Shown one piece after another: positions 1,831-28,875 of a stretch of 32,000 nt of DNA. A program made the position numbers and the translations under genes. Position 1 is the stretch's first letter. Each line of letters opens with the position of its first letter. The DNA is taken from contig NZ_JPSL02000038.1 in assembly GCF_000771745.2 (NCBI RefSeq), positions 100,024-132,023 of the forward strand, read 5' to 3'. Source of the DNA: Thermus filiformis. Its GTDB lineage: Bacteria; Deinococcota; Deinococci; Deinococcales; Thermaceae. A model generated the notes under the pieces. It was given only the letters and a program-made list of their open reading frames with translations. It searched no databases and was not told the DNA's origin.

Positions 1831-1831
1831 C

Positions 1832-2230: not shown

Positions 2231-2250
2231 GGGGTGCGTAGACTGGAAGG

Positions 2251-5407: not shown

Positions 5408-5451
5408 GGGCATTCGTACCTTCCGTCACAAGGCCTCCGGGTTCACACTAG

Positions 5452-5477: not shown

Positions 5478-5490
5478 GAGGAGGTGGACG

Positions 5491-6627: not shown

Positions 6628-6637
6628 GGGGGACGCC

Positions 6638-7237: not shown

Positions 7238-7238
7238 G

Positions 7239-8111
7239 CTACGGGGCGAAGTACCTTCGGACGAGCTCCCGCACCTCGGGCGGGGGCTCGGCCTTTTCCA
7301 GGTAGACCTCGGCGCTCCTCCGGACCTCAGGGGGCGGTCCCTCGGGCCAGGGGGAGGGAAGGGGGGAGGCGGCCTCCCCCTGGCCCGAGCCCAGGGGAAG
7401 GGGGGCCTGGGGGCCCGCCGGGGCCTCGAGGGGGGGCGGGGGAAGGGAGGGGCCCATCCCCTGGCCCGGCGCCCCTCCCAGAGGGCCGGGGGCCGGGCTG
7501 GACCCTTCCCGGCCGGGGGCCGGGGCTTCCCTTAGGGGGGCCTGGCCTGGTCCCTCCTGGGGCCTTGCGGCGCCCGCCCCCCCTTCCTTGGGGGTCTGGG
7601 GCGCTTGGGGGCCCGGACCGGAAGGGGCCCCATCCTCTCCGGCGGGCGCACCCCTTTCTTTTCCGGCGGAGGGGGGCGCCTCGCCGGGCGAACGCGCGCC
7701 CCCTCCTTGGGGGGATGAGGGCGCCTCCTGGGCCTGGCCGGGGGCCTGGGGGGCCAGCTGGGCGGGGGCCTCCGGCGGGAAGAGGAGGGGGGCGCGGGGG
7801 GAGGGGAGGAGGGTCCAGAGGAGGAGGGCCAGGTAGAGGAGGAAAAGGCCCCACGGAAAGGGGGGAAGGCGGGCCTCCACCCGGCGCGCCGCCTCCCAGA
7901 GGGGGGGCTCCGGGTACTCGAGGGCGGTCAGGTAGGCCAGGCCGTAGCGGCGGGCGATCTCCTTAAGGGCCCGGCCCTCAAAGAGCCGGGCGGGGAGGAG
8001 AAGGCCCAGGAGGGAGGGAAGGGGCCCCAGGAGGAGGAGAAGGAGGGCCAGAAGGAGCCGGGCCTTCCAGGCGAGCCGGCTCGCGTAGGCCCGGTGGAAG
8101 CCGGGGTACAC
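7239..8111 (-). CDS. membrane-anchored protein with about 170-aa Pro/Gly/Ala/Gln-rich low-complexity domain
   Basis: The GTG start lies 6 nt after the upstream stop. There are two hydrophobic helices near the N-terminus. Three frames are open here, so frame choice rests on those TM segments and on operon coupling. Confidence 0.5.
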   Translation of the reverse strand: MYPGFHRAYASRLAWKARLLLALLLLLLGPLPSLLGLLLPARLFEGRALKEIARRYGLAYLTALEYPEPPLWEAARRVEARLPPFPWGLFLLYLALLLWTLLPSPRAPLLFPPEAPAQLAPQAPGQAQEAPSSPQGGGARSPGEAPPSAGKERGAPAGEDGAPSGPGPQAPQTPKEGGAGAARPQEGPGQAPLREAPAPGREGSSPAPGPLGGAPGQGMGPSLPPPPLEAPAGPQAPLPLGSGQGEAASPLPSPWPEGPPPEVRRSAEVYLEKAEPPPEVRELVRRYFAP

Positions 8112-8117
8112 CCCCCA

Positions 8118-9560: not shown

Positions 9561-9627
9561 ACCCCCATTACAAAGGAGAGGGGGATGAAGGGCATGAGAC
9601 AACCCCAAAGGCCGAAAGGGCCTGGGA

Positions 9628-12261: not shown

Positions 12262-12273
12262 GGCCCACCCCCG

Positions 12274-12303
12274 AAAAAAAACCGCCGGGCTTCTCGCCCG
12301 GGC
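12274..12303 (-). terminator. Intrinsic-terminator-like hairpin plus T8 tract in the rtcB leader
   Basis: On the minus strand the sequence reads CCGGGC-GAGAA-GCCCGG, then CGG and TTTTTTTT. It ends about 12 nt before the rtcB GTG. Confidence 0.55.
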
Positions 12304-12311
12304 TTATCTTT

Positions 12312-12340
12312 AACATACCACGGTATGCGCTATGCGTCAA
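12312..12340 (-). promoter_or_regulatory. Sigma-A-like promoter upstream of rtcB
   Basis: On the minus strand TTGACG (12340-12335), a 17-nt spacer and TATGTT (12317-12312). It is overlapped by three CGCATA(C/G) repeats and an ATACC-ac-GGTAT palindrome. Confidence 0.5.
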
Positions 12341-12375
12341 GGGTATGCGGCGAAACCCCCTCCTAGACGCCACTC

Positions 12376-12630
12376 TCAGGCCCTCAGGGCGGGGGGTGGG
12401 GCCTCCCCCCAGGCCAGTTCCACCAGGGCGATGAGCTCGTCCACCGGGACCCCGTAGTCCCGGGAGAGCCGGGCCACCTCCTGGCCCAGCCGCTTGAGGT
12501 GGGGCAGGTGGGCCTCGTCCGTCTCCTCGGCCAGGCCCAGGAGCCAGGAGAGGAGCTCCCGGGCCTCCTCGTCGGTCAGGCCCTCGGTCAGGGCCTCGTC
12601 GCTTAGGAAGAGTTCAGCGTAGTTTTCCAT
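12376..12630 (-). CDS. small acidic hypothetical protein (84 aa)
   Basis: ATG-initiated ORF with non-repetitive Glu/Asp/Leu-rich composition. No family recognised. Confidence 0.5.
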   Translation of the reverse strand: MENYAELFLSDEALTEGLTDEEARELLSWLLGLAEETDEAHLPHLKRLGQEVARLSRDYGVPVDELIALVELAWGEAPPPALRA

Positions 12631-12683
12631 GGGGCGGACACCCTTTTGGCCTTCCTACTCCAAGAAGCCCTTTGGCGAGCGCT

Positions 12684-12735
12684 TCACCGCTCCCCCCTTC
12701 CTGGCGCAAGCCGGGACGGGTTGGCATAAAGCGTT
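12684..12735. repeat. Fourth copy of the GCAA hairpin repeat family
   Basis: CACCGCTCCCCCCTTCCTGGCGCAAGCCGGGACGGGTTGGCATAAAGC aligns with the unit at 3588-3637. It overlaps the 3' end of the FtsB-like ORF. Confidence 0.7.
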
Positions 12736-13016
12736 TCCTCCTTGCCCACAAAGCCCAGCCTGCGGACCAGGGCCTCGAGGTAGAGGGGGTCCTGGGCGGC
12801 CTCCGCCTCGGCCCTAAGCCGCTCCACCCGGGTGCGGGCGGCCTGGAGGGCGGCCTCGAGGCGGGCCTTCTCCAGGGCGAGCGCCCGGGCCCGGAAAAGC
12901 TCCTGGCCGAACAGGAAGGCCAGGTGGGCCAGGCCCAGGGCGAAGAGGTAGACCAGCAGGCGGTGGCTAGGGCGCTCCAAGGCTCCCCTATTATACGCCC
13001 GCCTCCTTCCAGGCAC
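12684..13016 (-). CDS. septum formation initiator family protein (FtsB/DivIC-like)
   Basis: One TM helix (LLVYLFALGLAHLAFLF), then a coiled coil and the DPLYLEALVRRLGFV motif. The start codon is uncertain: GTG at 13016, while a TATAAT lies inside the ORF at 12990-12995. Confidence 0.65.
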   Translation of the reverse strand: MPGRRRAYNRGALERPSHRLLVYLFALGLAHLAFLFGQELFRARALALEKARLEAALQAARTRVERLRAEAEAAQDPLYLEALVRRLGFVGKEETLYANPSRLAPGRGER

Positions 13017-13081
13017 CCTCCCCGCCCAAACCGGACCGGGTTAAAACCTACAATTCTACCCCCAAAATCACCCAGGGCATA

Positions 13082-13109
13082 TTGCATTTGCACCAAAAGG
13101 GTGTATATT
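13082..13109 (+). promoter_or_regulatory. Promoter of the Fur-family gene
   Basis: TTGCAT (13082-13087), a 16-nt spacer and TGT-TATATT (extended -10, 13104-13109). The RBS AAAGGAGG lies at 13117-13124. Confidence 0.55.
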
Positions 13110-13129
13110 GGAAAAGAAAGGAGGTTGGG

Positions 13130-13567
13130 ATGGCAAGGACCAAGGAAAAGGAAAGCTATCGGAGCCGGCTTAGGGGCGTGGGCCTGCGGCACACCATGCC
13201 GCGGGAGCGGATTCTCGCCTACCTGGACCGGAAGAACGTCCACCCCACCGCGGAGGAGCTCTACCAGGGGCTGAAGCGCAGGGGGTTCTCCATCGGCCTC
13301 TCCACCATTTACCTCAACCTGCACGTCCTGCGGGAGCACGGCCTCATCTACGAGTTCAAGGACCCCAAGGGCGAGACCCGGTTTGACGGCTGGACGGAGC
13401 CCCACGCCCACCTGGCCGACCTGGAGACGGGCAAGGTGGTGGACGTGCCCCTCAAGGACCTGGGCCTGGACCGGGAGGCCTTCTTGCAGGAGATGGCCGC
13501 CAAGACCGGCTGGGACCTGAAGGACTTCCGCCTCGAGCTCCGGGGCACCCCGCCCGCCAAGGAGTAA
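13130..13567 (+). CDS. Fur family transcriptional regulator
   Basis: The winged-helix region is GLRHTMPRERILAYL..HPTAEELY..GLSTIYLNLHVLREHGLI, followed by a HAH motif. The ATG has a strong SD. Confidence 0.8.
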   Translation: MARTKEKESYRSRLRGVGLRHTMPRERILAYLDRKNVHPTAEELYQGLKRRGFSIGLSTIYLNLHVLREHGLIYEFKDPKGETRFDGWTEPHAHLADLETGKVVDVPLKDLGLDREAFLQEMAAKTGWDLKDFRLELRGTPPAKE

Positions 13568-13581
13568 ACGCCTTCTTAGGC

Positions 13582-13612
13582 CCCCACCCTGGCCTTCGCC
13601 AGGGTGGGGTTT
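13582..13612. terminator. Bidirectional terminator hairpin between convergent fur-like and pepA genes
   Basis: CCCCACCCTGGC-CTTC-GCCAGGGTGGGG followed by TTT. The stem sequence is related to the GCAA-loop repeat family. Confidence 0.7.
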
Positions 13613-15038
13613 ACTGCAGGAAGCGGAGTAGGGTCCGCACCCCGAACCCTGTCCCCCCCACGGGGCCCAGGGGGTGGGGCTTAGAGGCGTAGGCGGGGCC
13701 CGCGATGTCCAGGTGGGCGAAGGGCACCTTGACGAACTCGGCCAGGAACAAGGCGGCGGTGATCGCCCCGCCGCCGCGGTCCCCCACGTTCTTCAGGTCG
13801 GCGAACTCGCTTTTGAGCTTCTCCCGGTAGGCCTCCTCCAGGGGCATGGGCCAGACCTTCTCCCCCGCCTCCTTGGCCGCCTGTAGGAGGCGGCGCTCCA
13901 GGCGGGGGTCGGTGGAGAAGAGGGCCGCCACCTTCTCCCCCAGGGCCACCACCGCCGCCCCAGTGAGAGTGGAGAGCTCCACAATGGCCTCCGCCCCTTC
14001 CTTTTCCGCGTAGGCCAGGGCGTCCGCCAGGGTGAGCCGCCCCTCCGCGTCGGTGTTCAGCACCTCTATGGTCTTGCCGCTATAGCTTTTCAGGATGTCC
14101 TGCACCCGGTAGGCGGAGCCGGAGATCATGTTCTCCGCCGCGGCGATGTAGGCCCGGACCTCGAGGGAGGGCCTAAGCTGGGCGACCGCCCGCATCGCGC
14201 CCAGGACGGCCGCCGCCCCCGCCATGTCCCCCTTCATGGTGGACATGCTCTCCGTGGGCTTGAGGGAGTAGCCGCCGGTGTCAAAGGTGAGCCCCTTGCC
14301 CACCAGGGCCAGGCGGCCCGAGGGCTGGCTGGGCCGGTAGACCAGCTTGATGAACCGGGGCGGGTTGGCCGACCCCTTGGCCACCGCTAGGAAGGCCCCC
14401 ATCCCCTCCGCCTGGATCCTTTCCTCGTCCCAGACCTCCGCCTCGAGGCCCACCTCCTCCGCCAGGGCCAGGGCGCGCCGGGCCAGCTCCGCCGGGGTGA
14501 GGACGTTGGGGGGCTCGTTCACCAGGTCCCGGGCGTAGTTCACCGCCTCCGCCACCACCCGGGCCCGCTCCACCTCGGCCCCCGGGGCCTGGGCCAGGAG
14601 GACGCGGAGCCGCTTCCCTTCCTCCTTCTTGTACTTGAGGAAGCGGTAGCTCCCCAGGTAAAGCCCCTCGGCCAGGGCGTAGGCCGCCTCCTTCCGCCCC
14701 AGCTCCTCGGCGAAGAAGACCTCCACCGCCGCCTCCCGGAAGGAGAGCCGGTCCAGGGCCTGGGCCAGCCGGCCCCCGTGCTCCCGGAGCCGGTCCAGGT
14801 CCTGGCCCCGCTTCTTCCCCAGCCCGAAGAGGAGGAAGGCCCCCTCCGGCCTGGCCACAAGGAGGGTTTCCCCGGCCTCCCCCTTGAACCCCGTCTCCTT
14901 CAGGACCTGGCCCAGCCCTCCGCCCAGGGCCCGGTCCAGGGCCTGGCCCTGGGGGAGGAGGCCGCTAGGGGTCACCCCCACCACCTTGAGGGGGGCCGGA
15001 AGCTCAAAAAGGGCGCGACGCGCGGCTTTGATTTCCAC
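13611..15038 (-). CDS. pepA: leucyl aminopeptidase (M17)
   Basis: 475 aa with VGKGLTFDTGGYSLKP and NTDAEGRLTLADAL motifs. GTG start. Confidence 0.92.
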   Translation of the reverse strand: MEIKAARRALFELPAPLKVVGVTPSGLLPQGQALDRALGGGLGQVLKETGFKGEAGETLLVARPEGAFLLFGLGKKRGQDLDRLREHGGRLAQALDRLSFREAAVEVFFAEELGRKEAAYALAEGLYLGSYRFLKYKKEEGKRLRVLLAQAPGAEVERARVVAEAVNYARDLVNEPPNVLTPAELARRALALAEEVGLEAEVWDEERIQAEGMGAFLAVAKGSANPPRFIKLVYRPSQPSGRLALVGKGLTFDTGGYSLKPTESMSTMKGDMAGAAAVLGAMRAVAQLRPSLEVRAYIAAAENMISGSAYRVQDILKSYSGKTIEVLNTDAEGRLTLADALAYAEKEGAEAIVELSTLTGAAVVALGEKVAALFSTDPRLERRLLQAAKEAGEKVWPMPLEEAYREKLKSEFADLKNVGDRGGGAITAALFLAEFVKVPFAHLDIAGPAYASKPHPLGPVGGTGFGVRTLLRFLQ

Positions 15039-15054
15039 GCTGGAGAATATACCA
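15039..15054 (-). promoter_or_regulatory. Extended -10 element positioned for a leaderless pepA transcript
   Basis: On the minus strand TGg-TATATT (15054-15046), then 7 nt and the GTG start at 15038. There is no SD. Confidence 0.4.
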
Positions 15055-15068
15055 CGCCCTGTGGCAGA

Positions 15069-16031
15069 CTAACCGGCCAAGTTGTCAAGCCCCCCCACCT
15101 CAGCCCGCACGCAGACGGACCACGCGGCACGAGCTAGGCGGTTAGCAAGGGCGACGAGGGCAAGGCGCTTAGGCTTACCGCGAGCAAGTAGGGCCTCAAC
15201 GAAGGCCCGCCGGTCAGGGTGAAAGCGGTAGGCGGAGAGGGCGGCCATGTAGAAGGCCCCACGAAGGGCCGGAGGACCCACCCGAGAGATACGGCCCCGC
15301 TCGGGGGATTGCCCGGACTGATGAAGGCGAGGGGTGAGGCCGGTAAACGCGGCGTAGGCCCGGGCAGAGGAGAAGCGGCGCATATCCCCGGAGTAGGCGA
15401 GGACGCGGAGGGCGATAGCCTCACCCACGCCGGGGAGGGAGAGGAGGGCGGAGAACCAGCCGGAAAGAAGGGGGTCAGAGCGCACGACCTCTAGGGCACG
15501 GGAGCGGACTTCCCGAGCTATGCCCTGAATGCGGTCAGGTATGCCCTCCAGGTCAGAGAGGGAGGGGAGGACATAGGCCCAAGCATGTAGGCGGTTGAGG
15601 AGGGCCACGCGGTCAGAGGCCAAGCCCGCCTCCAAACGGACCAGGACGGACAAGAGGGTAAGGGAGTCAGGAGAAGGCTCATAGGCGGGTAGCTCATGGA
15701 CCCGCTCAGAGAGGAAGCGAGCGATTAGGCGGGCATCCGCCCGGTCAGTCTTGGCCCGCCGGAGGAGAGAGCGAGCGTAGGAGGCCACCGAGAGGGGTTG
15801 CAGGACATAGACCGGAAAGCCCGCCCGGTGGAGGGCGTAGGCGAGGGGGCGGTGATAGGAGCCGGTAGCCTCCACCCCCACCACGGAGCCCGGAGGGAGG
15901 AGGCGGAGGAGGTCAGGGATACCGGAGGGGTTAGGAAAGCGGTGCAAAGGCCCATCAGGACCTAGGGCCACATCAAGCCACCGAGAGGCGACATCCACAC
16001 CGACGAAAAGAGAAGGGCGGGCACCCTGCAT
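15069..16031 (-). CDS. IS110 family transposase/recombinase (DEDD N-domain plus Transposase_20 C-domain)
   Basis: Motifs are LFVGVDVAS, VGVEATGSYHRPLA, AKTDRADARLIA and PGVGEAIALRVLAY..F. I prefer the ATG at 16031, which sits 6 nt after a TATAAG box, over the upstream ORF start at 16130. Confidence 0.88.
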   Translation of the reverse strand: MQGARPSLFVGVDVASRWLDVALGPDGPLHRFPNPSGIPDLLRLLPPGSVVGVEATGSYHRPLAYALHRAGFPVYVLQPLSVASYARSLLRRAKTDRADARLIARFLSERVHELPAYEPSPDSLTLLSVLVRLEAGLASDRVALLNRLHAWAYVLPSLSDLEGIPDRIQGIAREVRSRALEVVRSDPLLSGWFSALLSLPGVGEAIALRVLAYSGDMRRFSSARAYAAFTGLTPRLHQSGQSPERGRISRVGPPALRGAFYMAALSAYRFHPDRRAFVEALLARGKPKRLALVALANRLARAAWSVCVRAEVGGLDNLAG

Positions 16032-16250
16032 AGCACTCTTATACCCGACCGCAGAGGGCCAGACTAACCGCCGCCGCAGGGTAGGCCAGTCTACCACACG
16101 ACCACAAGGGCCAGAATGGTTGACGGCCACGGCCCGCCCGAGGAGATTCTACCGCCCACCACTCACCGCCGGAGGCGGTAGACCCCACGCCGGGGGTCAT
16201 AGGGGCACCGGCCCCAGGCAACATGCGGGCAATGGCGCTTAGATTCGGCC
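16032..16250 (-). ncRNA. Candidate IS110 bridge-RNA (non-coding left end)
   Basis: Position is upstream of the recombinase, as in IS110/IS621. A 9-bp stem forms between TCTACCGCC (16148-16156) and GGCGGTAGA (16174-16182). GGCCAG(A/T)(C/A)T.. motifs recur. An exact 11-mer CAGACTAACCG at 16060-16070 matches the element's right end at 15065-15075. Confidence 0.3.
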
Positions 16251-16411
16251 ACCTGTTGAGCCAGAGGCCCAGGCATACCGCAGACCGGGCAACGCTTAGG
16301 AGCGCCAGAGGAAGCGGGACCAGTCCCAGCCCTCTTCAGGGGAAGCCTCTCCCTCACCTTCCAGAGGAGGAGGGCCAGGAGGAGGAGGAGAAGGAGGAGA
16401 GTCCAGCCCAT
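16163..16411 (-). CDS. small ORF with Leu-rich TM helix and Cys-rich tail; possibly the displaced C-terminus of Zot
   Basis: Sequence is MGWTLLLLLLLLALLLWKV.. then CPVCG..HCPH..CPY. It overlaps the zot 3' end by 116 nt in another frame and may run into the IS110 left end. Confidence 0.3.
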   Translation of the reverse strand: MGWTLLLLLLLLALLLWKVRERLPLKRAGTGPASSGAPKRCPVCGMPGPLAQQVAESKRHCPHVAWGRCPYDPRRGVYRLRR

Positions 16412-17279
16412 GCCCAGAGTCTACCGCCTCTTGCACCGAAGCAAACTTAGCCCGCAGGAGTTCATGAGGGGGAATCCCTTCCCGGTAGGCACGGGCAAGC
16501 TCAGGGAGGGTGAGGTAAGGAAGGCCGTCCAGAGGACCGGGAGCGTCCCGCCGAGCGGTGAGGCGGGAGGAGTCCCAGCGAAGACCCATGCGCTCAAAGA
16601 CCGCCCGGCGTTTAGGGTCCAGTTCTCTCTGGAGGCGGACTATAGGCGGTTCAAAAATGGCGTGCGTATCGTAGCAGGAAGCCGCCAGGGGGTCCAGGAT
16701 AACGACGGAGTTACGGGCCACGCCCTCAAAGATTGAGGAAGTTCTTTTCACCATCATTCCAAGACTTTCGTCCATTATGGAAGTGTAGCGGAGAACCTTC
16801 CGACCCCGAGCCCAGGGGAGGAGGAAGAGGACGAGCCAGGAAGGGGCAGGACGCGCCCAGTAGACGAAGGCCACCAGCTCACGCACGATAGCATCAACCG
16901 AGCCGTACCTTTGCGTAGCTAGGTAGACATCAACCCCGACCTTTCTATGTTGCGACCAGAAGGCGATAACCTCAACCGGGATAAGGTCAAACTGACGGGA
17001 GGGGAGCCACATATGGGCTTCATCAAAAAGCAGAACGCCGTCATGAACATTGAGGAGTTCGGAATAATCGTGGATTTCGTGAATCATATCGGTACGGAGG
17101 ACCGCCTCACGATGAGGAAGGCGCTTACGAGAACGCAAGTAGCGGTAGACATTCTCCCGGATGAAGCCGAAGTTTGCGTAGACCGGACGGGGACGGGGAA
17201 GGGCCAGAGCCTCAAGGCCCTTGAGGACCAGGGCGTAACTCTTACCCGACCCAGGAATGCCCACAAAAGCCTCAATCAC
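16296..17279 (-). CDS. zot: Zot/pI-like phage assembly P-loop ATPase
   Basis: The GTG at 17279 overlaps the upstream TGA (GTGA) and gives MIEAFVGIPGSGKSY (Walker A). Walker B is VLLFDEAHMW, followed by HRKVGVDVYLATQ. The C-terminal tail is poly-Pro. Confidence 0.8.
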   Translation of the reverse strand: MIEAFVGIPGSGKSYALVLKGLEALALPRPRPVYANFGFIRENVYRYLRSRKRLPHREAVLRTDMIHEIHDYSELLNVHDGVLLFDEAHMWLPSRQFDLIPVEVIAFWSQHRKVGVDVYLATQRYGSVDAIVRELVAFVYWARPAPSWLVLFLLPWARGRKVLRYTSIMDESLGMMVKRTSSIFEGVARNSVVILDPLAASCYDTHAIFEPPIVRLQRELDPKRRAVFERMGLRWDSSRLTARRDAPGPLDGLPYLTLPELARAYREGIPPHELLRAKFASVQEAVDSGHGLDSPPSPPPPGPPPLEGEGEASPEEGWDWSRFLWRS

Positions 17280-17710
17280 CGGCCACCCCGCAGGAAAGTG
17301 ATAAGCCGCCAAACGGCCATGAGGCCGTAGAAGCCGAGCCAGAGTTGAAAGGCCAAGAGCGCCTCGGAAATGGGCAGTATCTGATTCGCAAGGGAAAGGG
17401 CGGGGATAATCACGGAACCGCTCACAAGGTTAGTCCAGGAGGCGGGCATATCAGGGAGGAGGGAAACCAGGACGGAAAGGACAATGAAGGGGAGTTCTAC
17501 GATATGGCCCAGGAGCCAGAAGATAGCGACAAAGGCCCAGTTGAGGACATCAACAAGGCGATTCCACAGCCAAACCAGGGGGAGTTCAACGAGCCGAAGA
17601 ACCCACTCAGCAATGGCGCGGATAGTGGCAACGAGCCACGCGGCGAGATTCGCAAAGGTAGAGGCCAGCCATTGAAGGATATTGAGGAGCCCGCTTATTA
17701 TCGCACCCAT
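17276..17710 (-). CDS. phage multi-pass membrane protein, pVI-like by position (144 aa)
   Basis: About four hydrophobic helices. It lies directly upstream of zot and is translationally coupled to it. Confidence 0.6.
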   Translation of the reverse strand: MGAIISGLLNILQWLASTFANLAAWLVATIRAIAEWVLRLVELPLVWLWNRLVDVLNWAFVAIFWLLGHIVELPFIVLSVLVSLLPDMPASWTNLVSGSVIIPALSLANQILPISEALLAFQLWLGFYGLMAVWRLITFLRGGR

Positions 17711-17756
17711 AGCACCACCCCCTTAGTCTTCCCGCGCCCACCCCGCAACCTAGGGT

Positions 17757-17909
17757 AGGGGGGGCGGCACCCCGTCAAGGGCCGGAGGCCCCTCCGCCGC
17801 CCCCACACGCTGAAACCATCCGCAGTCCTCGCAGGGCTCCGGTTAGCGGACGGCAGGGATGGGGGCGGCTCCGGGGTTAGCACCCTTGACGGGGACCCCG
17901 CCGCCCCCC
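17757..17909. repeat. Pair of inverted GC-rich stem-loops in the phage intergenic region
   Basis: In arm 1, GGGGCGGC (17761-17768) pairs with GCCGCCCC (17796-17803). In arm 2, GGGGGCGGC (17861-17869) pairs with GCCGCCCCC (17900-17908). The arms are inverted copies of each other: CCCCGTCAAGGG near 17770 and CCCTTGACGGGG near 17883. Confidence 0.7.
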
Positions 17910-17959
17910 CTGGAGGAAGAGGCGAGGGTGGGCGCGGGGAAAATGGCGCGGGAAAGGAT

Positions 17960-19015
17960 TCACGAAACGACATCTAAGGCCCTCCTAATGGCGGTTATGC
18001 CGAAGACCACCCAGAAAAGGGCGGCGAGAATGGGGCGGAAGGTAGTACCGAGTTGCCAGAAGGGGGTATCGCAAATGTTGACCTGCCCCTGGACCGGGCC
18101 GACCGGGAAGGTGAAGGAGCATTGAGCAGAGTCCCCGGTAAACTGGACCCCGGTCATTATCGTAACGATAGCAAAGGGGAACTTGCGCGAAATGGTATCC
18201 CGAAGGTTGCGAATGCGCTGTTGAACCCGCTCTACGACTTGAGTTTGGAAGGTATTCCAAAGGCCCTCTTTCTCCTCAACTTTGGGCAACTCCTTAGCCT
18301 CGGGCACCTGGACCTCGGGCAACTGCACCGGGTCAAGTTTGCCGGGAGGAGGACCACCGGGCCATTGGGGTTCGTCCTTCTGTTCTTCCTGTTGAGGGGG
18401 TTCACCCTCGGGGTGAGAGTTAGGGTCTTTGGGGTCAGTACCCGCTGAAATCTCGGTGGAGTCAGGCCAGCCGTCCCCGTCCGAGTCGGGAGAAGAAGGA
18501 GAAGGCGGACGGACCGGATGAGATTTAGAGTCGTAGGGGTCAGTACCAGCCGTCAACTCCTCAAGGTTCGTGAAGCCGTCCCCGTCAGGGTCAGCGTAAG
18601 GGTCAGGGTGATTAGCCGGAACATTGATAAGGTCCACCCAGTCACGCCCAGAATAGTTTGCCTCTTTCCATTCTATAGAATCAGGCCAGCCGTCCCCGTC
18701 AGTATCCACATCAGGGCGAGTAAAGGGGTTGTCGGTCCATTGATTAGGGTTAGGGGTAGGTATCAACTCCACACCGGGCCAGGGAGAACGAGGAGAAGCA
18801 GGGGGGTGATTCTTCACATACTCCTCTGCCGCAGTACGGACGGGGGAAATAGCATCAGGGTGAGCCTCCAGCCAGTCTTTCAACTCGGGACGCTGAACAA
18901 TAGGAGCCCGAGCGTAGCAAGAGCGGTCAACAGGGCATTGAGGATAAGGAACCTGCCCCCAAGGATAAGAGCGATATTCGGGGTCAACATACCGCATGTA
19001 ATCCAGAACATACAT
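17960..19015 (-). CDS. pIII-like minor coat/adsorption protein candidate with thrombospondin-type-3-like Ca-binding repeats and C-terminal anchor
   Basis: Motifs DTDGDGWPD, DPDGDGFTNLEELTAGTDPYDSKSHP and DSDGDGWPDSTEISAGTDPKDPNSHP. There is a Pro/Glu linker and a C-terminal TM segment FRPILAALFWVVFGITAI. No signal peptide is present. Confidence 0.55.
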   Translation of the reverse strand: MYVLDYMRYVDPEYRSYPWGQVPYPQCPVDRSCYARAPIVQRPELKDWLEAHPDAISPVRTAAEEYVKNHPPASPRSPWPGVELIPTPNPNQWTDNPFTRPDVDTDGDGWPDSIEWKEANYSGRDWVDLINVPANHPDPYADPDGDGFTNLEELTAGTDPYDSKSHPVRPPSPSSPDSDGDGWPDSTEISAGTDPKDPNSHPEGEPPQQEEQKDEPQWPGGPPPGKLDPVQLPEVQVPEAKELPKVEEKEGLWNTFQTQVVERVQQRIRNLRDTISRKFPFAIVTIMTGVQFTGDSAQCSFTFPVGPVQGQVNICDTPFWQLGTTFRPILAALFWVVFGITAIRRALDVVS

Positions 19016-19035
19016 CGCCCTGTTCCACTCAGACG

Positions 19036-19554
19036 CTAAGTGCTCTCCCCCAAGATTTTCAACTCCACACCCCCTAGGGCCCTGAGGGCCTGGACCACCG
19101 CCTCCTTGAGCTCCTCAAGGCTCTCGTAGTGCCGCCGGGGCATCAGAAACCCCTTCACCCGCCGCCAGACGTTCTCCATGGGGTTCCGATGGGGGCTGTA
19201 CCGGGGCAGGTACCCCACCGCAAGCCCCCTCTCCCGCCACGCCCCCTTCCTGGCCTCCACCTCCTTGGACCGGTGGAACGGTGCGTTGTCCATGAATACC
19301 TTCAGAGGCTTGGTCAGAGCCTCAGAGACCCTGTCCAAATAGGCCCGCACCCCCTCCGACCGCACCGGCCCCTCCAAAACGGCAAAGTACAGCCGCTCCC
19401 CCTCCTTCCCCCGCACCAGATGCCCCACCACGTTCACCCGACCCAAAGAACCCCAGGCCCGGGGCACCGCCTTTGCCTCCCCTCTCCGACACCAGGCATA
19501 GGTGGGGGGAAGGGCCAGGGAAAACCCGCTCTCATCCAAGTACCCCACCTCCAT
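19036..19554 (-). CDS. IS630 family transposase, DDE catalytic part (orfB)
   Basis: Sequence includes MEVGYLDESGFSL..., VFMDNAPFHRS and YSPHRNPMENVW. The ATG overlaps the orfA stop (TGATG). The frame stays open upstream past an A4G5 slippery run. Confidence 0.8.
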   Translation of the reverse strand: MEVGYLDESGFSLALPPTYAWCRRGEAKAVPRAWGSLGRVNVVGHLVRGKEGERLYFAVLEGPVRSEGVRAYLDRVSEALTKPLKVFMDNAPFHRSKEVEARKGAWRERGLAVGYLPRYSPHRNPMENVWRRVKGFLMPRRHYESLEELKEAVVQALRALGGVELKILGEST

Positions 19555-20096
19555 CACCCCTTCCCGCGCCCCCTTTTGGCTTCCTCTTCCTCCTCTATAA
19601 AGGCCTGAACCTCCTCCGCGCTGGGCTTCCCTACGGGCACGTACCGCGTCCGCTTCCAGACGTACCCCATGGCCCTGAGGTGCCGGGAGATGACCTTGGG
19701 GGCCAGGCAGCCCCCAAACCGCTCCGCTATGGCCTGCGCCAGCTGAGGGGCGGTCCAGACCCGGTCCTCGGCCAGCCTCTCCCGCACAAAGGCCGCTATC
19801 TCCGGGGTGAATTTCCTGGGTGCTCCCGGGGGTTTCCGGTAGACGAGGCCCTTTGGGCCGGACCTTAGGAAGCGCTTTAGAACGTGATAGACGGTGGTGC
19901 GGTCCTTGTGGAAGTGCCGGGCGATCTGGGGGGCGGCCCAGCCTTCGCCCGCCAGGCGGACCATCATGGCCCAAAGGCGGGTCTTCTTGTGGACATGCGG
20001 GTTCAGGGAGAGCTCCAGCAGAAGCCGGTCCTCCTCCGGGGTCAGCTGAATCCGAAGAGGGGCTGCCATGTTGAGATGATAAAGGGTTGGCACTTA
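19037..20096 (-). mobile_element. IS630-family insertion sequence flanked by TA
   Basis: TA at 19037-19038 and 20095-20096. The imperfect terminal inverted repeats are AGTGCTCTCCCCC (left) and AGTGCCAACCC (reverse complement of the right end). It encodes HTH and DDE ORFs. Confidence 0.8.
19554..20069 (-). CDS. IS630 family transposase, N-terminal HTH part (orfA)
   Basis: Helix-turn-helix regions WAAPQIARHFHKDRTTVYHVLKRF and WTAPQLAQAIAERFG. Typical IS630 N-terminus. Confidence 0.8.
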   Translation of the reverse strand: MAAPLRIQLTPEEDRLLLELSLNPHVHKKTRLWAMMVRLAGEGWAAPQIARHFHKDRTTVYHVLKRFLRSGPKGLVYRKPPGAPRKFTPEIAAFVRERLAEDRVWTAPQLAQAIAERFGGCLAPKVISRHLRAMGYVWKRTRYVPVGKPSAEEVQAFIEEEEEAKRGRGKG

Positions 20097-20102
20097 GACG
20101 AC

Positions 20103-21137
20103 GTGCTCAGGCCCATCCACGGGGGGCCGGACGGGGGCCCGGAGCCCCTTTGGGACTTTTCCACCAACGCCAACGCCCTGGGGCCGAACCCCGTCCTCCT
20201 GGAACACCTCCGGCGGGTGGACCCCTCCCGCTACCCGGACCCCCTCTACCGGAGGCTGCGGGAGGCCCTGGCCGAGGCCCACGGGGTGCGGCCGGAGCAG
20301 GTGGCGGTGGGCACGGGGACGAGCGAGCTCATCCACCGGCTGGCCCGCTGGAGCTACCTGCGGGGGCCCTGGCTCCTCCTCCCCCCCACCTTCTCCGAGT
20401 ACGCCCGGGCGGCCCGGGCCCTGGACCTCCCCCTCTGGGAGGCGCGAAGCCCCGGGGAGTTTTTGGACCTCCTCCCCAGAAGCGCGGTGGCCTTCCTGTG
20501 CGTGCCCAACAACCCCACGGGGGAGGTCTACCCCTTCCTGGAGAAGGCGGTGAGGCGGGCGGGGGGAGTCTTGGTGCTGGACCTGGCCTACCACGACCTC
20601 CTGGAGTCCCCCGTCCCTCTTCCTGAGGGGGCCTTCCGGCTCTACAGCCCCAACAAGGCCCACGGCCTCACCGGGGTGCGCGCGGGGTACCTGGTGGCCC
20701 CGCTGGACCTCACCTACTTCCAGAACCTGGCCCCCTCCTGGCCGGTTTCCGCCTACGGGGAGGCCCTCCTCCTGGGCCAGCTGGACCCGGAGGCCCGCTC
20801 TTGGCTCGAGGCCAGCCGGCGCGAGCTCATCCGCCTGAGGGGGCTTTTGGCCGAGGGGCTAAGGGGGCTCGGCCTGGAGGTGCGGGAAAGCCCCGCCAAC
20901 TTCCTCCTGGTGCGGGTGGGGCGGGCCTCGGAGGTGGCCCGGGCCCTGCGGGCGCGGGGCATCCGGGTGCGGGACGCCACCAGCTTTGGCCTTCCCGAGT
21001 GGCTCCGCCTTTCCGCCCAGAAGGAGGAGGCCATAAGGGCCCTCCTCGCCGCCCTCGAGGAGGTCCTTGTAGACTTGGAGCGTGGAGCTCATGGCCTACC
21101 TGGAGGAGGCGGCGCGGCGGCTACGGGAGGCCTTTGA
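20103..21137 (+). CDS. cobD: threonine-phosphate decarboxylase / class I-II aminotransferase fold (CobD-like)
   Basis: Sequence includes (M)LRPIHGGPD.., NPNNPTG-like VPNNPTGEV and the PLP lysine motif YSPNKAHGLTG. It lies next to cobQ/cobU. A GTG at 20103 is my assumed start. The annotated longer ORF upstream is antisense IS630 sequence. Confidence 0.7.
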   Translation: MLRPIHGGPDGGPEPLWDFSTNANALGPNPVLLEHLRRVDPSRYPDPLYRRLREALAEAHGVRPEQVAVGTGTSELIHRLARWSYLRGPWLLLPPTFSEYARAARALDLPLWEARSPGEFLDLLPRSAVAFLCVPNNPTGEVYPFLEKAVRRAGGVLVLDLAYHDLLESPVPLPEGAFRLYSPNKAHGLTGVRAGYLVAPLDLTYFQNLAPSWPVSAYGEALLLGQLDPEARSWLEASRRELIRLRGLLAEGLRGLGLEVRESPANFLLVRVGRASEVARALRARGIRVRDATSFGLPEWLRLSAQKEEAIRALLAALEEVLVDLERGAHGLPGGGGAAATGGL

Positions 21138-21405
21138 CCTCGAGGCCCTCTACCTCTTCGGCTCCCACGCCCGGGGCACGGCCGGCCCCCGCTCGGACCT
21201 GGACCTCCTGGTGGTGGCGAGGACCTCCTTGCCCCCCCTGGAGCGCATCGGCCGGGTCCTGGAGCTTTTGGCCGACGCCCCCCTCCCCGTGGAGGCCATC
21301 GTCCTCACCCCCGAGGAGCTTAGGGAGCGCCGGGACCTCCCCTTCCTCCAGGGGGTTCTCCGGGAGGCGAAGCCCATCTATGAGCGTGGAGAAACGCCGG
21401 CTTGA
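21082..21405 (+). CDS. MNT-type nucleotidyltransferase (antitoxin of HEPN/MNT pair)
   Basis: GSHARGTAGPRSDLDLLVV matches the GSxxRGx(n)SDxDL motif. The start is either GTG at 21082 or ATG at 21091. It overlaps the cobD 3' end. Confidence 0.8.
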   Translation: MELMAYLEEAARRLREAFDLEALYLFGSHARGTAGPRSDLDLLVVARTSLPPLERIGRVLELLADAPLPVEAIVLTPEELRERRDLPFLQGVLREAKPIYERGETPA

Positions 21406-21793
21406 GGCCCTGCGCTGGCTCGCCCAAGCCCAGGACGACTGGGAGGCGGGCCAGGCCCTGCTGGAAGCGGGCAAGTACGCCCAGGCAGCCTTTCTCGCCC
21501 AGCAGGCGGGGGAAAAGGCGCTAAAAGGCCTCTGGATCGCCCTGGGCCTAGACCCATGGGGGCACAGCCTGGCCCGCCTCCTCCGGGACCTCCCCCCGGA
21601 GGAGGCCCCCTTTTTCCATCCCCTTTTGCCCCAGGCCCTGGCCTTGGACAAGCTCTATATCCCCACCCGCTACCCCGATGCCCTCCCTGGGCTCACTCCC
21701 AAGGAGGCCTACACGGAGGCGGAGGGCAGGAAGGCCTTGGAGGATGCCCGGGCCATCCTGGAAGCCGTGGAGGTGCGCCTTGCCCAGGGCTAA
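21380..21793 (+). CDS. HEPN domain protein (toxin of HEPN/MNT pair)
   Basis: 137 aa with A..L..A..D and YIPTRYPDA motifs. It overlaps the MNT gene by 26 nt. Confidence 0.8.
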   Translation: MSVEKRRLEALRWLAQAQDDWEAGQALLEAGKYAQAAFLAQQAGEKALKGLWIALGLDPWGHSLARLLRDLPPEEAPFFHPLLPQALALDKLYIPTRYPDALPGLTPKEAYTEAEGRKALEDARAILEAVEVRLAQG

Positions 21794-23699
21794 GGCCCTC
21801 ATCGTCTGGGGCACGGGAAGCGGGGTGGGGAAAAGCCTCCTCGTGGCGGGGCTTCTTCGCCACTTCCGCAGGCTCGGCCTGAGGGCCGCCCCCTTCAAGG
21901 CCCAGAACATGTCCAACCACGCCCGGGTGGTCCCGGGGGGGGAGATCGCCTCCGCCCAGTGGCTCCAGGCCCTGGCCGCCGGGGTGGAGCCCGAGGTGCG
22001 GATGAACCCCGTCCTGGTGAAGCCCTTCGGGGAAAGGGGCGCCCAGGTGGTGGTGTGGGGGAAGGTGGACCCCGCCCTCTCCCGGCTTCCCTGGAAGGAG
22101 CGCAAGCCCCACCTCGAGGCCCCCATCCGGGAGGCCCTGGAAGGTCTTTTGGCCGAGTACGAGCTTTTGGTCCTCGAGGGGGCGGGAAGCCCGGTGGAGC
22201 GGAACCTCTGGCCCGACCTCCCGAACCTGAAGGTGGCGGAGTGGGCCGATGCTAAGGCCCTCCTGGTGGCGGACGTGGACCAGGGGGGGGCTTTGGGGGC
22301 GCTCTACGGCACCTGGGCCCTTTTGGGGGAGCACCGGGGAAGGCTTATCGGCTTCGCCTTCAACAAGTTCCGGGGGGACCTGGAGCTTTTGAAGCCCGCC
22401 TACCGCCTCCTGGAAGACTGGACGGGCATCCCGGTCCTCGGAACCCTCCCCCTTCTTCCCCTGGAGCTCCCCGAGGAGGACGGGTTCCGCCACCGCCCCC
22501 GGGCGGCGGAAGGCCCCAAGGTGGCCCTCCTCCGCTACCCCCACGCCTCCAACCTGGACGAGTTCTGGCCCCTCTCCGAGCTCGCCCGCCCCGTGTACGC
22601 CACCACCCCCGAGGAGGCGGAAGGGGCGGAGCTCCTCGTCCTCCCGGGAAGCCGCTTCCCGGCCCGTGACCTCCCCTGGCTCAAGGCTTTCCTCCCCCTG
22701 ATCCAAAGGCACCTGGAGGCGGAAAAGCCCGTCCTCGCCGTCTGCGGCGGGGCGGAGATGCTCGCGGAGGCCATTTGGGACGAGGAGGGAGTGGAGGAAA
22801 AGGGGGTCTTCCCCGGCCTCGGCCTCCTTCCCTACCGGGTGCGCCTGGAGCGGGAGAAGCGGGTGGCGAAAACGGGGGCGCGCCTGGAAGGGCTTTCGGG
22901 GTACTGGGCGCGGCTAAATGGCCTCGAGGTCCAGGGGTACGAGATCCACCACGGCCGGGGCCTCCCCCTCTTCCACCAGGAAGGAAGCCTCCTCGCCACC
23001 TGGATGCACGGCCTCCTGGAAAACCCCCATGTGCAGCGGGCCCTCTTCGGCAAAGAGGCGCGGGGCCTGGAGGAGGCCCTGGAGGCCCTCGCGGACGCCC
23101 TCGAGGCCCACCTGGACCTGGGGGCGGTCCACCGGGCTTTGGGGCTTAAGGCCGCCCCCAAGGGCGGGGCCTCGGGGAGCGCGAGGGGGCTCGAGGCCCC
23201 TCCCCCCGGCCTCGTCCTCCTCCTGGGGGGAGCCAAAAGCGGCAAGAGCCGCCACGCCCAGCGCCTGGCCGGGCCCTTCGCCACCCTCATCGCCACCGCT
23301 GAGGCCCGGGACGAGGAGATGGCGGAGAGGATCCGCCGCCACAAGGAGGAGCGCCCCCCCACCTGGGAGACCCTGGAGGAGCCCCTGGACCTGGCGCGGG
23401 CCCTGGAGGAGGCCCGCCACCCCACGGTGGTGGTGGACTGCCTCACCCTCTGGGTGGCCAACCTGCTGGAGCGGGGGCTGGACCCTTTGGAGGAGACGGA
23501 GCGCTTCTTGGAGGCGGTGAAAAGGAGCGGCAAGCGGGTCATCGCCGTCTCCAACGAGGTGGGGATGGGGATCGTCCCCCCAAACCCCCTGGCCCGGCGC
23601 TACCGGGACCTCCTGGGCCAGGTGAACGCCCGCCTGGCCGAGGCGGCCCGGGAGGCTTACCTTTTGGTGGCGGGGCGGGCCCTTCCCCTAAAGGGCTAG
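21780..23699 (+). CDS. cobQ: cobyric acid synthase CobQ fused to adenosylcobinamide kinase/guanylyltransferase CobU
   Basis: CobQ part: GTGSGVGKS, the GATase motif VLAVCGG..ML, and YEIHHG. CobU part starts near 23209 with LLLGGAKSGKS and DCLTLWV. There is no stop between them. The start is uncertain (TTG 21780 or ATG 21744). Confidence 0.75.
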   Translation: MPRAKALIVWGTGSGVGKSLLVAGLLRHFRRLGLRAAPFKAQNMSNHARVVPGGEIASAQWLQALAAGVEPEVRMNPVLVKPFGERGAQVVVWGKVDPALSRLPWKERKPHLEAPIREALEGLLAEYELLVLEGAGSPVERNLWPDLPNLKVAEWADAKALLVADVDQGGALGALYGTWALLGEHRGRLIGFAFNKFRGDLELLKPAYRLLEDWTGIPVLGTLPLLPLELPEEDGFRHRPRAAEGPKVALLRYPHASNLDEFWPLSELARPVYATTPEEAEGAELLVLPGSRFPARDLPWLKAFLPLIQRHLEAEKPVLAVCGGAEMLAEAIWDEEGVEEKGVFPGLGLLPYRVRLEREKRVAKTGARLEGLSGYWARLNGLEVQGYEIHHGRGLPLFHQEGSLLATWMHGLLENPHVQRALFGKEARGLEEALEALADALEAHLDLGAVHRALGLKAAPKGGASGSARGLEAPPPGLVLLLGGAKSGKSRHAQRLAGPFATLIATAEARDEEMAERIRRHKEERPPTWETLEEPLDLARALEEARHPTVVVDCLTLWVANLLERGLDPLEETERFLEAVKRSGKRVIAVSNEVGMGIVPPNPLARRYRDLLGQVNARLAEAAREAYLLVAGRALPLKG

Positions 23700-23705
23700 A
23701 GGGTG

Positions 23706-23812
23706 AAGTTTGTTATATCGCCCTCGAGGCCCCCTCGCCATCTTTGCCTATCCTAAGGGAAAAGGGCACTTGTTATCCAGGGGCCGGGGGTGGGGCGAAA
23801 ATAACAAAGTTT
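23706..23812. repeat. Imperfect inverted repeat in low-GC spacer between cob operon and helicase gene
   Basis: AAGTTTGTTATATCGCCC (23706-23723) faces GGGCGAAAATAACAAAGTTT (23793-23812). A third TTGTTAT lies at about 23770. Confidence 0.4.
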
Positions 23813-23908
23813 GAGTGGAGGCTCTCCAGAATGCCTGGAACCCTGGCCACGCGAACGCCCGCCGGGAAGGGCTTACGGCCACCACGGGAGGGTTTGTAAT
23901 GCCCTCCT

Positions 23909-28861: not shown

Positions 28862-28875
28862 ACGCCTCCTTTAGC

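What the first reader, a model, noticed from the sequence alone, without database searches (positions are those of the whole stretch)
16163..19036. Truncated inovirus-like prophage fragment sandwiched between two IS elements
On the minus strand the order is: TSP3-repeat protein with a C-terminal anchor (gIII-like), a 4-TM protein (gVI-like), then a Zot/pI ATPase. This is the canonical filamentous-phage morphogenesis order.

The DNA is visibly less GC-rich than the flanks.

Genes for replication initiation, ssDNA-binding protein, major coat protein and a secretin are missing. The fragment abuts IS630 22 bp upstream of the gIII-like ATG, and IS110 lies downstream of zot.

Filamentous phages of Thermus (PH75, phiOH3) are known, so this is probably a decayed relative.
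Basis: partly seen in the sequence, partly recalled or inferred. Interest (0 to 1): 0.65.

Follow-up and report, generated by a model that had tools for sequence, protein, structure and literature searches.

The report
Split Thermus filamentous prophage, RNA-guided integrase
This is the right-hand half of a filamentous prophage of Thermus filiformis, related to phages phiOH16 and Zuza8; an IS630 element cuts it on one side, and on the other it ends at its own intact IS110-type integrase and guide ("bridge") RNA, whose loops spell out the insertion site.

Summary
On the minus strand lie a truncated gIII, then gVI, then a Zot/pI ATPase, at 59% GC against 71% in the flanks. The proteins are 49-78% identical to those of Thermus inoviruses OH3, phiOH16, Zuza8 and Zuza27.

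The interpretation needs three corrections.

1. The "IS110" is not a flanking IS. It is the phage's own integration gene: 57-61% identical over its full length to the transposases of phiOH16, Zuza8 and Zuza27, and in the same place and orientation. A conserved structured RNA of about 135 nt precedes it, and its loops match the phage end and the host target. A strain 97% identical to the window but lacking the prophage has the predicted empty site, CAACCATT-CT-GCCACA.

2. The "missing" genes are not lost. gII, gV, gVII, gIX and gVIII sit on another contig from the same sequencing runs, still joined to the original left flank.

3. No phage of this group encodes a secretin.

Only the IS630 (ISTth6 family) is a true interrupting IS.

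Proviruses of this kind are published. The bridge RNA in them was not found in the searched literature. Verdict: new member of a known kind, moderate interest.

The parts
17960..19036 (-). gIII' : the C-terminal two thirds of the adsorption protein pIII. It is cut at about residue 155 of OH3 pIII by the IS630. The frame is open right up to the IS junction, with a fortuitous ATG at 19015.
   Evidence: tblastn matches pIII residues ~158/180-504 of Zuza8, OH3 and OH16 at 49-58% identity. PHROG 36046 E=3e-109 covers profile positions 176-504 only. Two TSP3_bac repeats. Protein alignment.
17276..17710 (-). gVI, minor coat protein, intact (144 aa).
   Evidence: 58% identical to pVI of OH3, OH16 and Zuza27 over residues 1-137 of 142. 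PHROG 37052 E=4e-45.
16296..17279 (-). gI, the Zot/pI-type assembly ATPase (labelled 'IV' in the OH3 record). It is intact. The likely start is GTG at 17279, 3 nt after the gVI stop; the longest ORF starts at TTG 17312.
   Evidence: Pfam Zot E=4e-14. PHROG 20922 E=6e-139. 73-78% identical over the full length to the phage proteins.
16163..16411 (-). Small overlapping ORF (82 aa): an N-terminal hydrophobic helix followed by a zinc ribbon (CPxCGMP..CPxVA..CPYDPRRG). It overlaps the 3' end of gI in another frame.
   Evidence: The same ORF, with a conserved start, is present in Zuza8, Zuza27 and all tnp-bearing metagenome relatives. It is absent from OH16 and OH3 and is not annotated in the phage records. 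Only weak Pfam zinc-ribbon hits.
16009..16145 (-). Predicted bridge RNA. Closing helix: 5' strand 16139-16132, 3' strand 16022-16015. Target loop: LTG CAACCATT-CT at 16122-16113; RTG TGTGGT-AG at 16098-16091; handshake ACT at 16090-16088. Donor loop: LDG GGTTAGT-CT at 16069-16061; RDG GGTATA-AG at 16045-16038. A -10-like TAGAAT lies at 16151-16146.
   Evidence: Covariance model R1 scores 102 bits, E=6e-20. In the realigned set 98.1% of cells pair, and 13 of 28 pairs show compensatory change against 3.4 in shuffles, 0/500. The guides match the junctions. No Rfam family matches.
15069..16031 (-). IS110-family (DEDD / bridge-type) recombinase, 320 aa, intact. This is the phage's integration enzyme.
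   Evidence: Pfam DEDD_Tnp_IS110 and Transposase_20. 57-61% identical over the full length to the Zuza8, Zuza27 and OH16 transposases and 67-73% to L008, L017 and L010. The motifs GVDV, EATG, KTDRxDA and QSG are invariant.
15066..15088 (-). Right end of the prophage (attR). It holds a conserved outward -35 TTGACA (15088-15083), the left donor arm GGTTAGT (15074-15068) and the core CT (15067-15066). Host DNA (right target arm GCCACA) starts at 15065.
   Evidence: Homology to the prophage-free strain L097 (97.4% over 7.8 kb) stops at 15068. TTGACA is conserved in all relatives. LDG matches LD 8/9.
19037..20096 (-). IS630-family element of the ISTth6 family, 1,056 bp (19039-20094), with flanking TA dinucleotides and two overlapping transposase ORFs. 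This is the only true interrupting IS.
   Evidence: Pfam DDE_3 plus HTH domains. End-to-end match (1-1056) at 85% to annotated ISTth6 copies on 34 Thermus plasmids. Ends read. pTT27-like cob DNA resumes at 20097.

Best explanation
A complete Thomixvirus-like filamentous phage, with the circular gene order gII-gV-gVII-gIX-gVIII-gIII-gVI-gI-bridge RNA-recombinase, integrated into the Thermus filiformis chromosome. It inserted in the 40-nt spacer between the divergent DUF1385 and pepA genes.

Integration was carried out by the phage's own IS110-family recombinase, guided by a bridge RNA of about 135 nt encoded just upstream of it. One internal loop of the RNA reads the host target, CAACCATT-CT-GCCACA. 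The other reads the phage donor site, GGTTAGT-CT-TATACA.

The donor site lies in the spacer of the gII promoter, between a -35 TTGACA just after the recombinase gene and the -10. Insertion therefore separates gII from its -35.

Later the prophage was broken. An ISTth6-type IS630 sits in gIII at about codon 155, and the DNA on its far side is now a pTT27-like cobalamin cluster. The window therefore keeps only the right half: gIII', gVI, gI, the zinc-ribbon ORF, the bridge RNA, the recombinase and attR. The left half (attL, gII, gV, gVII, gIX, gVIII) survives elsewhere in the same genome.

Shown: homology; both junctions; the empty site; guide-junction complementarity; RNA covariation.

Inferred: that the RNA is made and guides recombination; promoter splitting as a lysogeny switch; IS630-mediated recombination as the cause of the split.
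For: Phage homology and colinearity:
-. The I-to-tnp spacer is 282 nt here, against 275 nt in Zuza8 and Zuza27.
- The recombinase is 57-73% identical to phage-borne copies and 37-38% to stand-alone Thermus IS110/IS1000A.

Junctions and empty site:
- The right junction reads GGTTAGT-CT|GCCACAGG.
- Strain L097 is 97.4% identical over window 7263-15068 and has no prophage. It reads CCCAACCATT-CT-GCCACAG, and its homology to the window stops at 15068. L096 gives the same site.
- The left-target guide was read from the window RNA before the empty site was seen, and it matched 8/8 plus the core.
- The left junction on L098 and L099 reads CCCAACCATT-CT-TATACA, followed by gII, gV, gVII, gIX and gVIII. 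The right-donor guide had predicted TATACC.
- L098 and L099 come from the same runs as L014 and L015, which are 100% identical to the window.

The same logic holds in relatives:
- There are 7 distinct target-guide sets, and 6 of them match their host flank 8/8. Donor guides match 8-9/9. Cognate pairs score higher than non-cognate pairs.

RNA structure:
- 13 compensatory pairs, 0/500 shuffles, and the slid controls collapse.

Promoter:
- In OH16, TTGACA-18-TACAAT (11/12) spans the donor core. No such site exists at the window end.
- The reconstituted window junction reads TTGACA-17 nt-TATACA, then 6 nt, then the gII ATG.

IS630:
- Boundaries and family are given.

Published context:
- The bridge-RNA model comes from PMC11208160 and PMC11208158.
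Against: - There is no direct evidence that the RNA is transcribed. The one RNA-seq run is held only as contigs with flat depth. No convincing -35 precedes the TAGAAT.
- The covariation was counted on an alignment fitted to the model. RNAalifold on the plain MAFFT alignment gave a different, weakly supported fold.
- The right-target guides pair only 4-5 of 6, and the donor-loop handshake positions do not fit well.
- In Zuza8-type relatives the donor site lies on the opposite strand to that in the window and OH16. This is unusual for IS110 elements.
- The join gIII'-IS630-cobD crosses a multi-copy repeat, and short-read assemblies of the same strain break at both IS ends. The window alone cannot exclude a misjoin.
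- About 400 nt of gIII (residues ~1-155) were not found. L098 ends in sequence that is neither a pIII signal peptide nor IS630. The rearrangement history is therefore incomplete.
Confidence: 0.85

Rival explanations
1. One reading: an independent IS110 insertion sequence landed next to a dead prophage fragment, so the fragment is bracketed by two unrelated IS elements.
For: The gene carries the Pfam IS110 domains. Thermus genomes do hold stand-alone IS110/IS1000A elements.
Against: The gene, strand, spacing and upstream non-coding RNA are the same as in three free phage genomes. Identity is 57-73% to phage-borne copies against 37-38% to Thermus IS copies. The unit that entered the empty site has gII at one end and this gene at the other, with the same CT core at both junctions.
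Confidence: 0.03
2. The adjacency gIII'-IS630-cobD is an assembly misjoin across a multi-copy IS. In the real genome the IS630 is a simple insertion in gIII, and the prophage is otherwise contiguous between DUF1385 and pepA.
For: The IS630 is a 1,056-bp repeat with TA at both ends whatever its history. Logan assemblies of the same strain stop at both IS ends, and a second, different flank abuts the same IS end. In T. thermophilus the cob cluster is on the megaplasmid.
Against: The contig with the left half (L098, and L099 in a second run) does not run through gIII to an IS630 end. It stops 119 nt after gVIII in unrelated sequence, so at least one further break exists. The window comes from a 317-kb contig.
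Confidence: 0.15
3. The remnant is retained because it is useful. Its still-intact genes (gVI, gI, the zinc-ribbon protein, the recombinase and its RNA) may serve the host, for example in superinfection exclusion or RNA-guided genome rearrangement.
For: All ORFs other than gIII are full length and the catalytic motifs are intact. The other half also keeps a full-length gII.
Against: Intact ORFs are equally expected after a recent break. A 97%-identical strain lacks the element, so it is not conserved in the species. No defence or other host-benefit domain was found.
Confidence: 0.05

Closest known systems
Thermus phages phiOH16, Zuza8 and Zuza27 (and the deletion derivative phiOH3); Tubulavirales, Paulinoviridae, Thomixvirus; and their proviruses described by Kolesnik et al. 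2024 (PMC11437467)
   Same: The same genes in the same order. pI is 73-78% identical, pVI 58%, pIII 49-58% and the recombinase 57-61%. The spacer RNA and the -35 after the recombinase gene are conserved. [quoted passage not shown]
   Different: The host is T. filiformis rather than T. thermophilus, and DNA identity is only about 69%. The element is split and gIII is broken. The target (the DUF1385/pepA spacer) and guide sequences are its own. The donor site has the orientation seen in OH16, not that of Zuza8 and Zuza27.
IS621/IS110 bridge-RNA recombination system (Durrant et al. 2024, PMC11208160; Hiraizumi et al. 2024, PMC11208158)
   Same: A DEDD plus serine recombinase. An upstream RNA with two internal loops, in which the 5' side repeats the left arm plus a CT core and the 3' side is complementary to the core plus the right arm. 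A handshake triplet complementary to the donor's left arm. A CT core at both junctions. A promoter split across the donor site.
   Different: About 5.5 kb of phage genes lie between the donor core and the RNA, so the order is RNA-recombinase-donor rather than donor-RNA-recombinase. Both arms are enclosed by a closing helix instead of following a 5' stem-loop. The split promoter faces gII rather than the RNA. The donor occurs in either orientation among relatives. No Rfam family matched at E<=1.
Neisseria filamentous prophages (Nf) with an IS110-family (Piv/Irg-type) transposase
   Same: An inovirus that uses an IS110-family enzyme placed at one end of the provirus for site-specific integration. 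This comparison is made in PMC11437467.
   Different: Not compared here at sequence level. The host, target repeats and phage family are all different.
ISTth6 (IS630 family) of Thermus thermophilus
   Same: A full-length 1,056-bp match at 85% identity, TA flanks and a two-ORF transposase.
   Different: This is a T. filiformis copy, inserted in a phage gene and directly upstream of cobD.

Membership tests
Thomixvirus-like inovirus (Tubulavirales, Paulinoviridae) | Zot/pI-type assembly ATPase | tested here: met
   Pfam Zot E=4e-14; PHROG 20922 E=6e-139; 73-78% identical to the phage proteins.
Thomixvirus-like inovirus (Tubulavirales, Paulinoviridae) | Morphogenesis gene order gIII-gVI-gI on one strand | tested here: met
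   Colinear with OH3, OH16, Zuza8 and Zuza27.
Thomixvirus-like inovirus (Tubulavirales, Paulinoviridae) | Rolling-circle endonuclease gII, ssDNA-binding gV, and coat genes gVII, gIX and gVIII | tested here: met
   Absent from the window. Present on L098 and L099 from the same runs, joined to the original left flank.
Thomixvirus-like inovirus (Tubulavirales, Paulinoviridae) | Complete adsorption protein pIII | tested here: not met
   Only residues ~155-506 remain. The N-terminal part was not found. The element is therefore a defective member.
Thomixvirus-like inovirus (Tubulavirales, Paulinoviridae) | Filamentous virion with circular ssDNA | not testable with these tools
   Needs induction and electron microscopy or DNA analysis.
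IS110-family bridge recombinase system | DEDD RuvC-like domain plus a Tnp domain with a catalytic serine | tested here: met
   Pfam PF01548 and PF02371. D13, E54, D96, D99 and S239 are invariant in the alignment. They correspond to the IS621 residues D11, E60, D102, D105 and S241 listed in PMC11208158.
IS110-family bridge recombinase system | Structured non-coding RNA with two internal loops next to the recombinase gene | tested here: met
   Model R1 and the covariation counts. Caveat: the alignment was fitted to the model.
IS110-family bridge recombinase system | Loop sequences complementary to the target and donor arms, with a shared core dinucleotide | tested here: met
   Window: LTG/LT 8/8, RTG/RT 5 plus 1 wobble of 6, LDG/LD 8/9, RDG/RD 5/6, and CT at both junctions. 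Relatives behave the same way.
IS110-family bridge recombinase system | The RNA is expressed, binds the recombinase and is required for recombination | not testable with these tools
   The only RNA run is held as contigs with flat depth.
IS110-family bridge recombinase system | Compact element (~1.2-1.5 kb) with the donor core immediately upstream of the RNA | tested here: not met
   The whole phage genome lies between the core and the RNA. The order is RNA-recombinase-core.
IS630 family (ISTth6) | DDE_3 transposase with N-terminal HTH domains, terminal inverted repeats, TA target duplication | tested here: met
   Pfam. The ends are AGTGC... and ...GCACT, each flanked by TA. End-to-end match to annotated ISTth6.

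The most novel reading that the evidence does not exclude
This group of Thermus inoviruses uses a bridge RNA-guided IS110 recombinase as its lysogeny module. The entire phage genome is carried as cargo between the donor core and the RNA. The donor site is built into the gII promoter, so that integration switches replication off and excision or circularisation switches it on. Relatives have naturally retargeted themselves to different host sites by changing 8-nt guide sequences (GGGGTAAG, CCGGTAAG, TGGGTAAG, TAAGTATA, CAACCATT). If so, this would be a natural, thermostable, phage-borne bridge system with an atypical RNA topology.
Probability: 0.7. Interest if true: 0.7.

Novelty: new member of a known kind. 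Interest (0 to 1): 0.5.

Why it matters
For genome annotation, the "IS110 transposase" next to zot should be read as part of the prophage. The prophage should be recorded as split rather than as having lost its replication module.

More broadly, the data give a set of natural guide/target/donor triples, with both junctions and an empty site, for a phage-borne IS110 system from organisms that grow at about 65-75 C. This shows how a filamentous phage can choose and change its chromosomal attachment site through a short RNA. It also suggests a simple lysogeny switch, a promoter split by integration. And it points to heat-stable bridge recombinases that could be tested as tools.

Each of these points can be tested directly with the cultured phages phiOH16, Zuza8 and Zuza27 on T. 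thermophilus HB8 and HB27.

Tried and rejected
- An Rfam scan of 14500-20500 at E<=1 found nothing.
- RNAalifold on the plain MAFFT alignment gave a fold dominated by the repeated GGCC motifs, with no covariation term. I replaced it with a hand-derived structure, realigned with a covariance model.
- Laying the one RNA-seq run on the region gave flat contig depth and no information on RNA ends.
- Exact-protein look-ups of P0231 and of the window's nucleotidyltransferase found nothing. What lies upstream of cobD in the prophage-free strain is therefore unknown.
- The single genome-contig scan returned three distant MAG prophages but not the source genome.
- The viral-contig scan with the recombinase returned only one locus.
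- I considered that the repeated CGGTTAGTCTG (16070-16060 and 15075-15065) marked terminal repeats of an IS. I rejected this in favour of guide/donor identity, because the same relation holds with different sequences in every relative.
- I considered that the missing genes had been deleted. I rejected this after finding L098 and L099.

Full report
**1. What is in the sequence**

The minus strand of 16163-19036 carries four ORFs:
- a 351-aa ORF with two bacterial TSP3 repeats and a C-terminal hydrophobic anchor (19015-17960);
- a 144-aa multi-helix membrane protein (17710-17276);
- a Zot-family ATPase (17312 or 17279 to 16296);
- an 82-aa ORF (16411-16163).

Pfam and PHROG scans gave Zot at E=4e-14, and three phage families at E=3e-109, 4e-45 and 6e-139.

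GC content is 0.59 over gIII-gI and 0.61 over the whole element, against 0.706 on both sides. The four related phages have 0.58-0.60.

**2. Which phage**

blastn and tblastn against the phage collection hit only five records, which represent four Thermus filamentous phages: OH3 (two records), phiOH16, Zuza8 and Zuza27. These are Tubulavirales, Paulinoviridae, Thomixvirus.

Their annotated order is (transposase)-II-V-VII-IX-VIII-III-VI-'IV', where 'IV' is the Zot-like protein. None has a secretin.

The window proteins compare as follows:
- pIII: 49-58% identical, but only to residues ~158/180-504 of ~506;
- pVI: 58%;
- pI: 73-78%.

Nothing in the 32 kb resembles gII, gV, gVII, gIX or gVIII.

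**3. The "IS110" belongs to the phage**

The gene at 16031-15069 is 57-61% identical, end to end, to the transposase carried by Zuza8, Zuza27 and phiOH16. It is 67-73% identical to copies in related viral and metagenome contigs. It is only 37-38% identical to the stand-alone IS110/IS1000A elements of Thermus megaplasmids.

It follows gI on the same strand after 282 nt, against 275 nt in Zuza8 and Zuza27, and that spacer is itself conserved.

OH3 retains the first half of the spacer and the last ~60 nt of the transposase gene. This agrees with the published view that OH3 is a deletion derivative (PMC11437467). [quoted passage not shown]

**4. A bridge RNA in the spacer**

I read the spacer against the model of Durrant et al. 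and Hiraizumi et al. (PMC11208160 and PMC11208158). It has two arms of identical design: 5' guide, GGCC, loop, GGUC, 3' guide. A helix encloses both arms, and its sequence changes in a compensatory way between phages:
- GGGCGGG/CCCGCCC;
- GGGGCAGG/CCTGCCCC;
- GGGGATAG/CTATCCCC.

A covariance model built on this structure finds the element in the window at 16145-16009 (102 bits) and in every relative.

On the realigned set, 98.1% of cells pair, and 13 of 28 pairs show changes on both sides. Shuffles gave 3.4 such pairs on average (0/500 reached the observed value), and the slid controls fell to 37-57% paired. The alignment was fitted to the model, which favours it. RNAalifold on the raw alignment did not recover the fold.

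**5. The guides fit the junctions**

In the window the first arm reads CAACCATT-CT on its 5' side and TGTGGT-AG-ACT on its 3' side. The second arm reads GGTTAGT-CT and GGTATA-AG.

The DNA just past the recombinase stop reads TTGACAACTTGGCCGGTTAGT-CT-GCCACAGG, followed by the pepA start. The phage arm GGTTAGT plus CT repeats the donor guide. The host arm GCCACA is complementary to TGTGGT, with one G:U pair.

This model made two predictions for sequences that are not in the window:
- the lost host arm should be CAACCATT;
- the lost phage left end should start TATACC.

Both were tested.

- Host arm. Contig L097 is 97.4% identical to window 7263-15068. It has pepA directly beside a divergent DUF1385 gene, and reads CCCAACCATT-CT-GCCACAG. 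Its homology to the window ends at 15068. A more distant relative, L096, has the same site.
- Phage left end. Contigs L098 and L099 come from the same two runs as L014 and L015, which are 100% identical to the window. They read DUF1385 - CCCAACCATT-CT-TATACA. This is followed by a 457-aa gII, a 100-aa gV, gVII, gIX, a small CxxC ORF and a 39-aa gVIII.

So the whole phage entered one site at a CT core, and both junctions still exist in this genome.

**6. The same rule in relatives**

Hot-spring metagenome contigs L017-L027 include integrated copies with one or both junctions. There are seven distinct target-guide sets. In six of them the 8-nt left-target guide equals the host flank 8/8 (GGGGTAAG, CCGGTAAG, TGGGTAAG, TAAGTATA, CAACCATT and others). 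Donor guides match 8-9 of 9. Right-arm guides match 4-5 of 6. Cognate pairs always score above non-cognate pairs.

In Zuza8-type genomes the donor site lies on the other strand than in the window, OH16, L008 and L017. It is still in the same place, between the conserved TTGACA and the -10 of gII.

**7. Promoter logic (inference)**

In OH16 the scan finds TTGACA-18-TACAAT (11/12) spanning the donor core. Joining the window's right end to the L098 left end gives TTGACA, then 17 nt, then TATACA, then 6 nt, then the gII ATG. This looks like a near-leaderless promoter that exists only in the circular form.

At the window's end the -10 is replaced by host DNA, and no promoter-like site is found there. 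Integration would thus silence gII.

**8. How the prophage was broken**

The element at 19039-20094 matches annotated ISTth6 (IS630 family) copies end to end at 85%, with TA on both sides.

The gIII frame runs open into it, at a position equivalent to about residue 155 of OH3 pIII.

Beyond the IS the DNA is 85% identical to the cob cluster of T. thermophilus megaplasmids, beginning 6 nt before the cobD start. In pTT27 that gene is preceded by HEPN/NTase, cbiB and bluB genes, which are absent here.

The DUF1385, mnmA and ABC transporter genes that flank the site in relatives are nowhere in the window.

The simplest reading is an IS630 insertion in gIII followed by recombination with another copy.

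I could not verify this reading, for three reasons:
- Short-read assemblies break at both IS ends, so a misjoin in the source assembly remains possible.
- L098 ends only 119 nt after gVIII, in sequence that is neither a pIII signal peptide nor IS630. This points to a further break.
- About 400 nt of gIII are unaccounted for.

**9. Host and context**

Cluster members of the DUF1385 protein are named Thermus filiformis.

**10. Comparison with what is known, and novelty**

The prophage type and its IS110 gene are published (PMC11437467). Bridge RNAs are established for IS110 elements.

Full-text searches that combined 'bridge RNA' with inovirus, filamentous phage or prophage returned no paper describing one in these phages. 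The library is incomplete, so this is weak evidence of novelty.

I file the finding as a new, defective and split member of a known kind. The added, testable observation is that its integration module has all the sequence hallmarks of a bridge RNA system with an unusual layout.

Noticed in passing
window 16163-16411 (-); also L002, L003, L008 and L017-L027 just after gI: A conserved, unannotated 74-82-aa ORF overlaps the end of gI in another frame. It has an N-terminal hydrophobic helix and a zinc ribbon (CPxCGMP..CPxVA..CPYDPRRG). It is absent from phiOH16 and OH3. Function unknown.
   Followed up: partly
L005 11126-11267 and L006 1768-1911: More distant MAG Thermaceae prophages (pI 62-65% identical) have a bridge-RNA-like element on the plus strand after gI (~55 bits). 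Their IS110 gene is on the opposite strand, convergent with and overlapping the 3' end of that element.
   Followed up: no
L024 about 1829-1890: The 28-nt right end (GGGGGGCTTGACAAGTGnGAGTTGTGAG) is present twice in tandem before the host flank. This may be a leftover from an earlier integration or excision.
   Followed up: no
L022 both junctions; L023 right junction: L022 sits in the host site that fits the guides of the L019-type phages (CCGGTAAG / TGGGAA), although its own target loop is of the L018 type. L023 lacks the A of the AG core at its right junction.
   Followed up: no
L098 240-400 (-), between gIX and gVIII: A small ORF with two CxxC pairs (MVVCKACMGSGSNPYDFGRCWTCEGMG...) fills the gIX-gVIII gap, which is left unannotated in OH3 and Zuza8.
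   Followed up: no
window 16014-16027 (-); L004 144-162: A terminator-like hairpin with a T run lies at the 3' end of the predicted bridge RNA. It uses the 3' strand of the closing helix. In the window it overlaps the recombinase start codon, so an alternative fold might gate recombinase expression.
   Followed up: no
window 9628-12261 (-): The RtcB RNA ligase gene contains an intein (877 aa, against 458 aa in the relative L095).
   Followed up: no
window 1-15065 versus 20097-32000: The two flanks differ in their affinities. The cob side is 85% identical in DNA to T. thermophilus megaplasmids. The pepA protein on the other side is only ~65% identical to pepA of named Thermus species.
   Followed up: partly
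window 20066-20110: The end of the IS630 supplies an in-frame ATG (MIKGWH...) upstream of the native GTG start of cobD. The IS sits 6 nt before that start, so it replaces the gene's upstream region.
   Followed up: no
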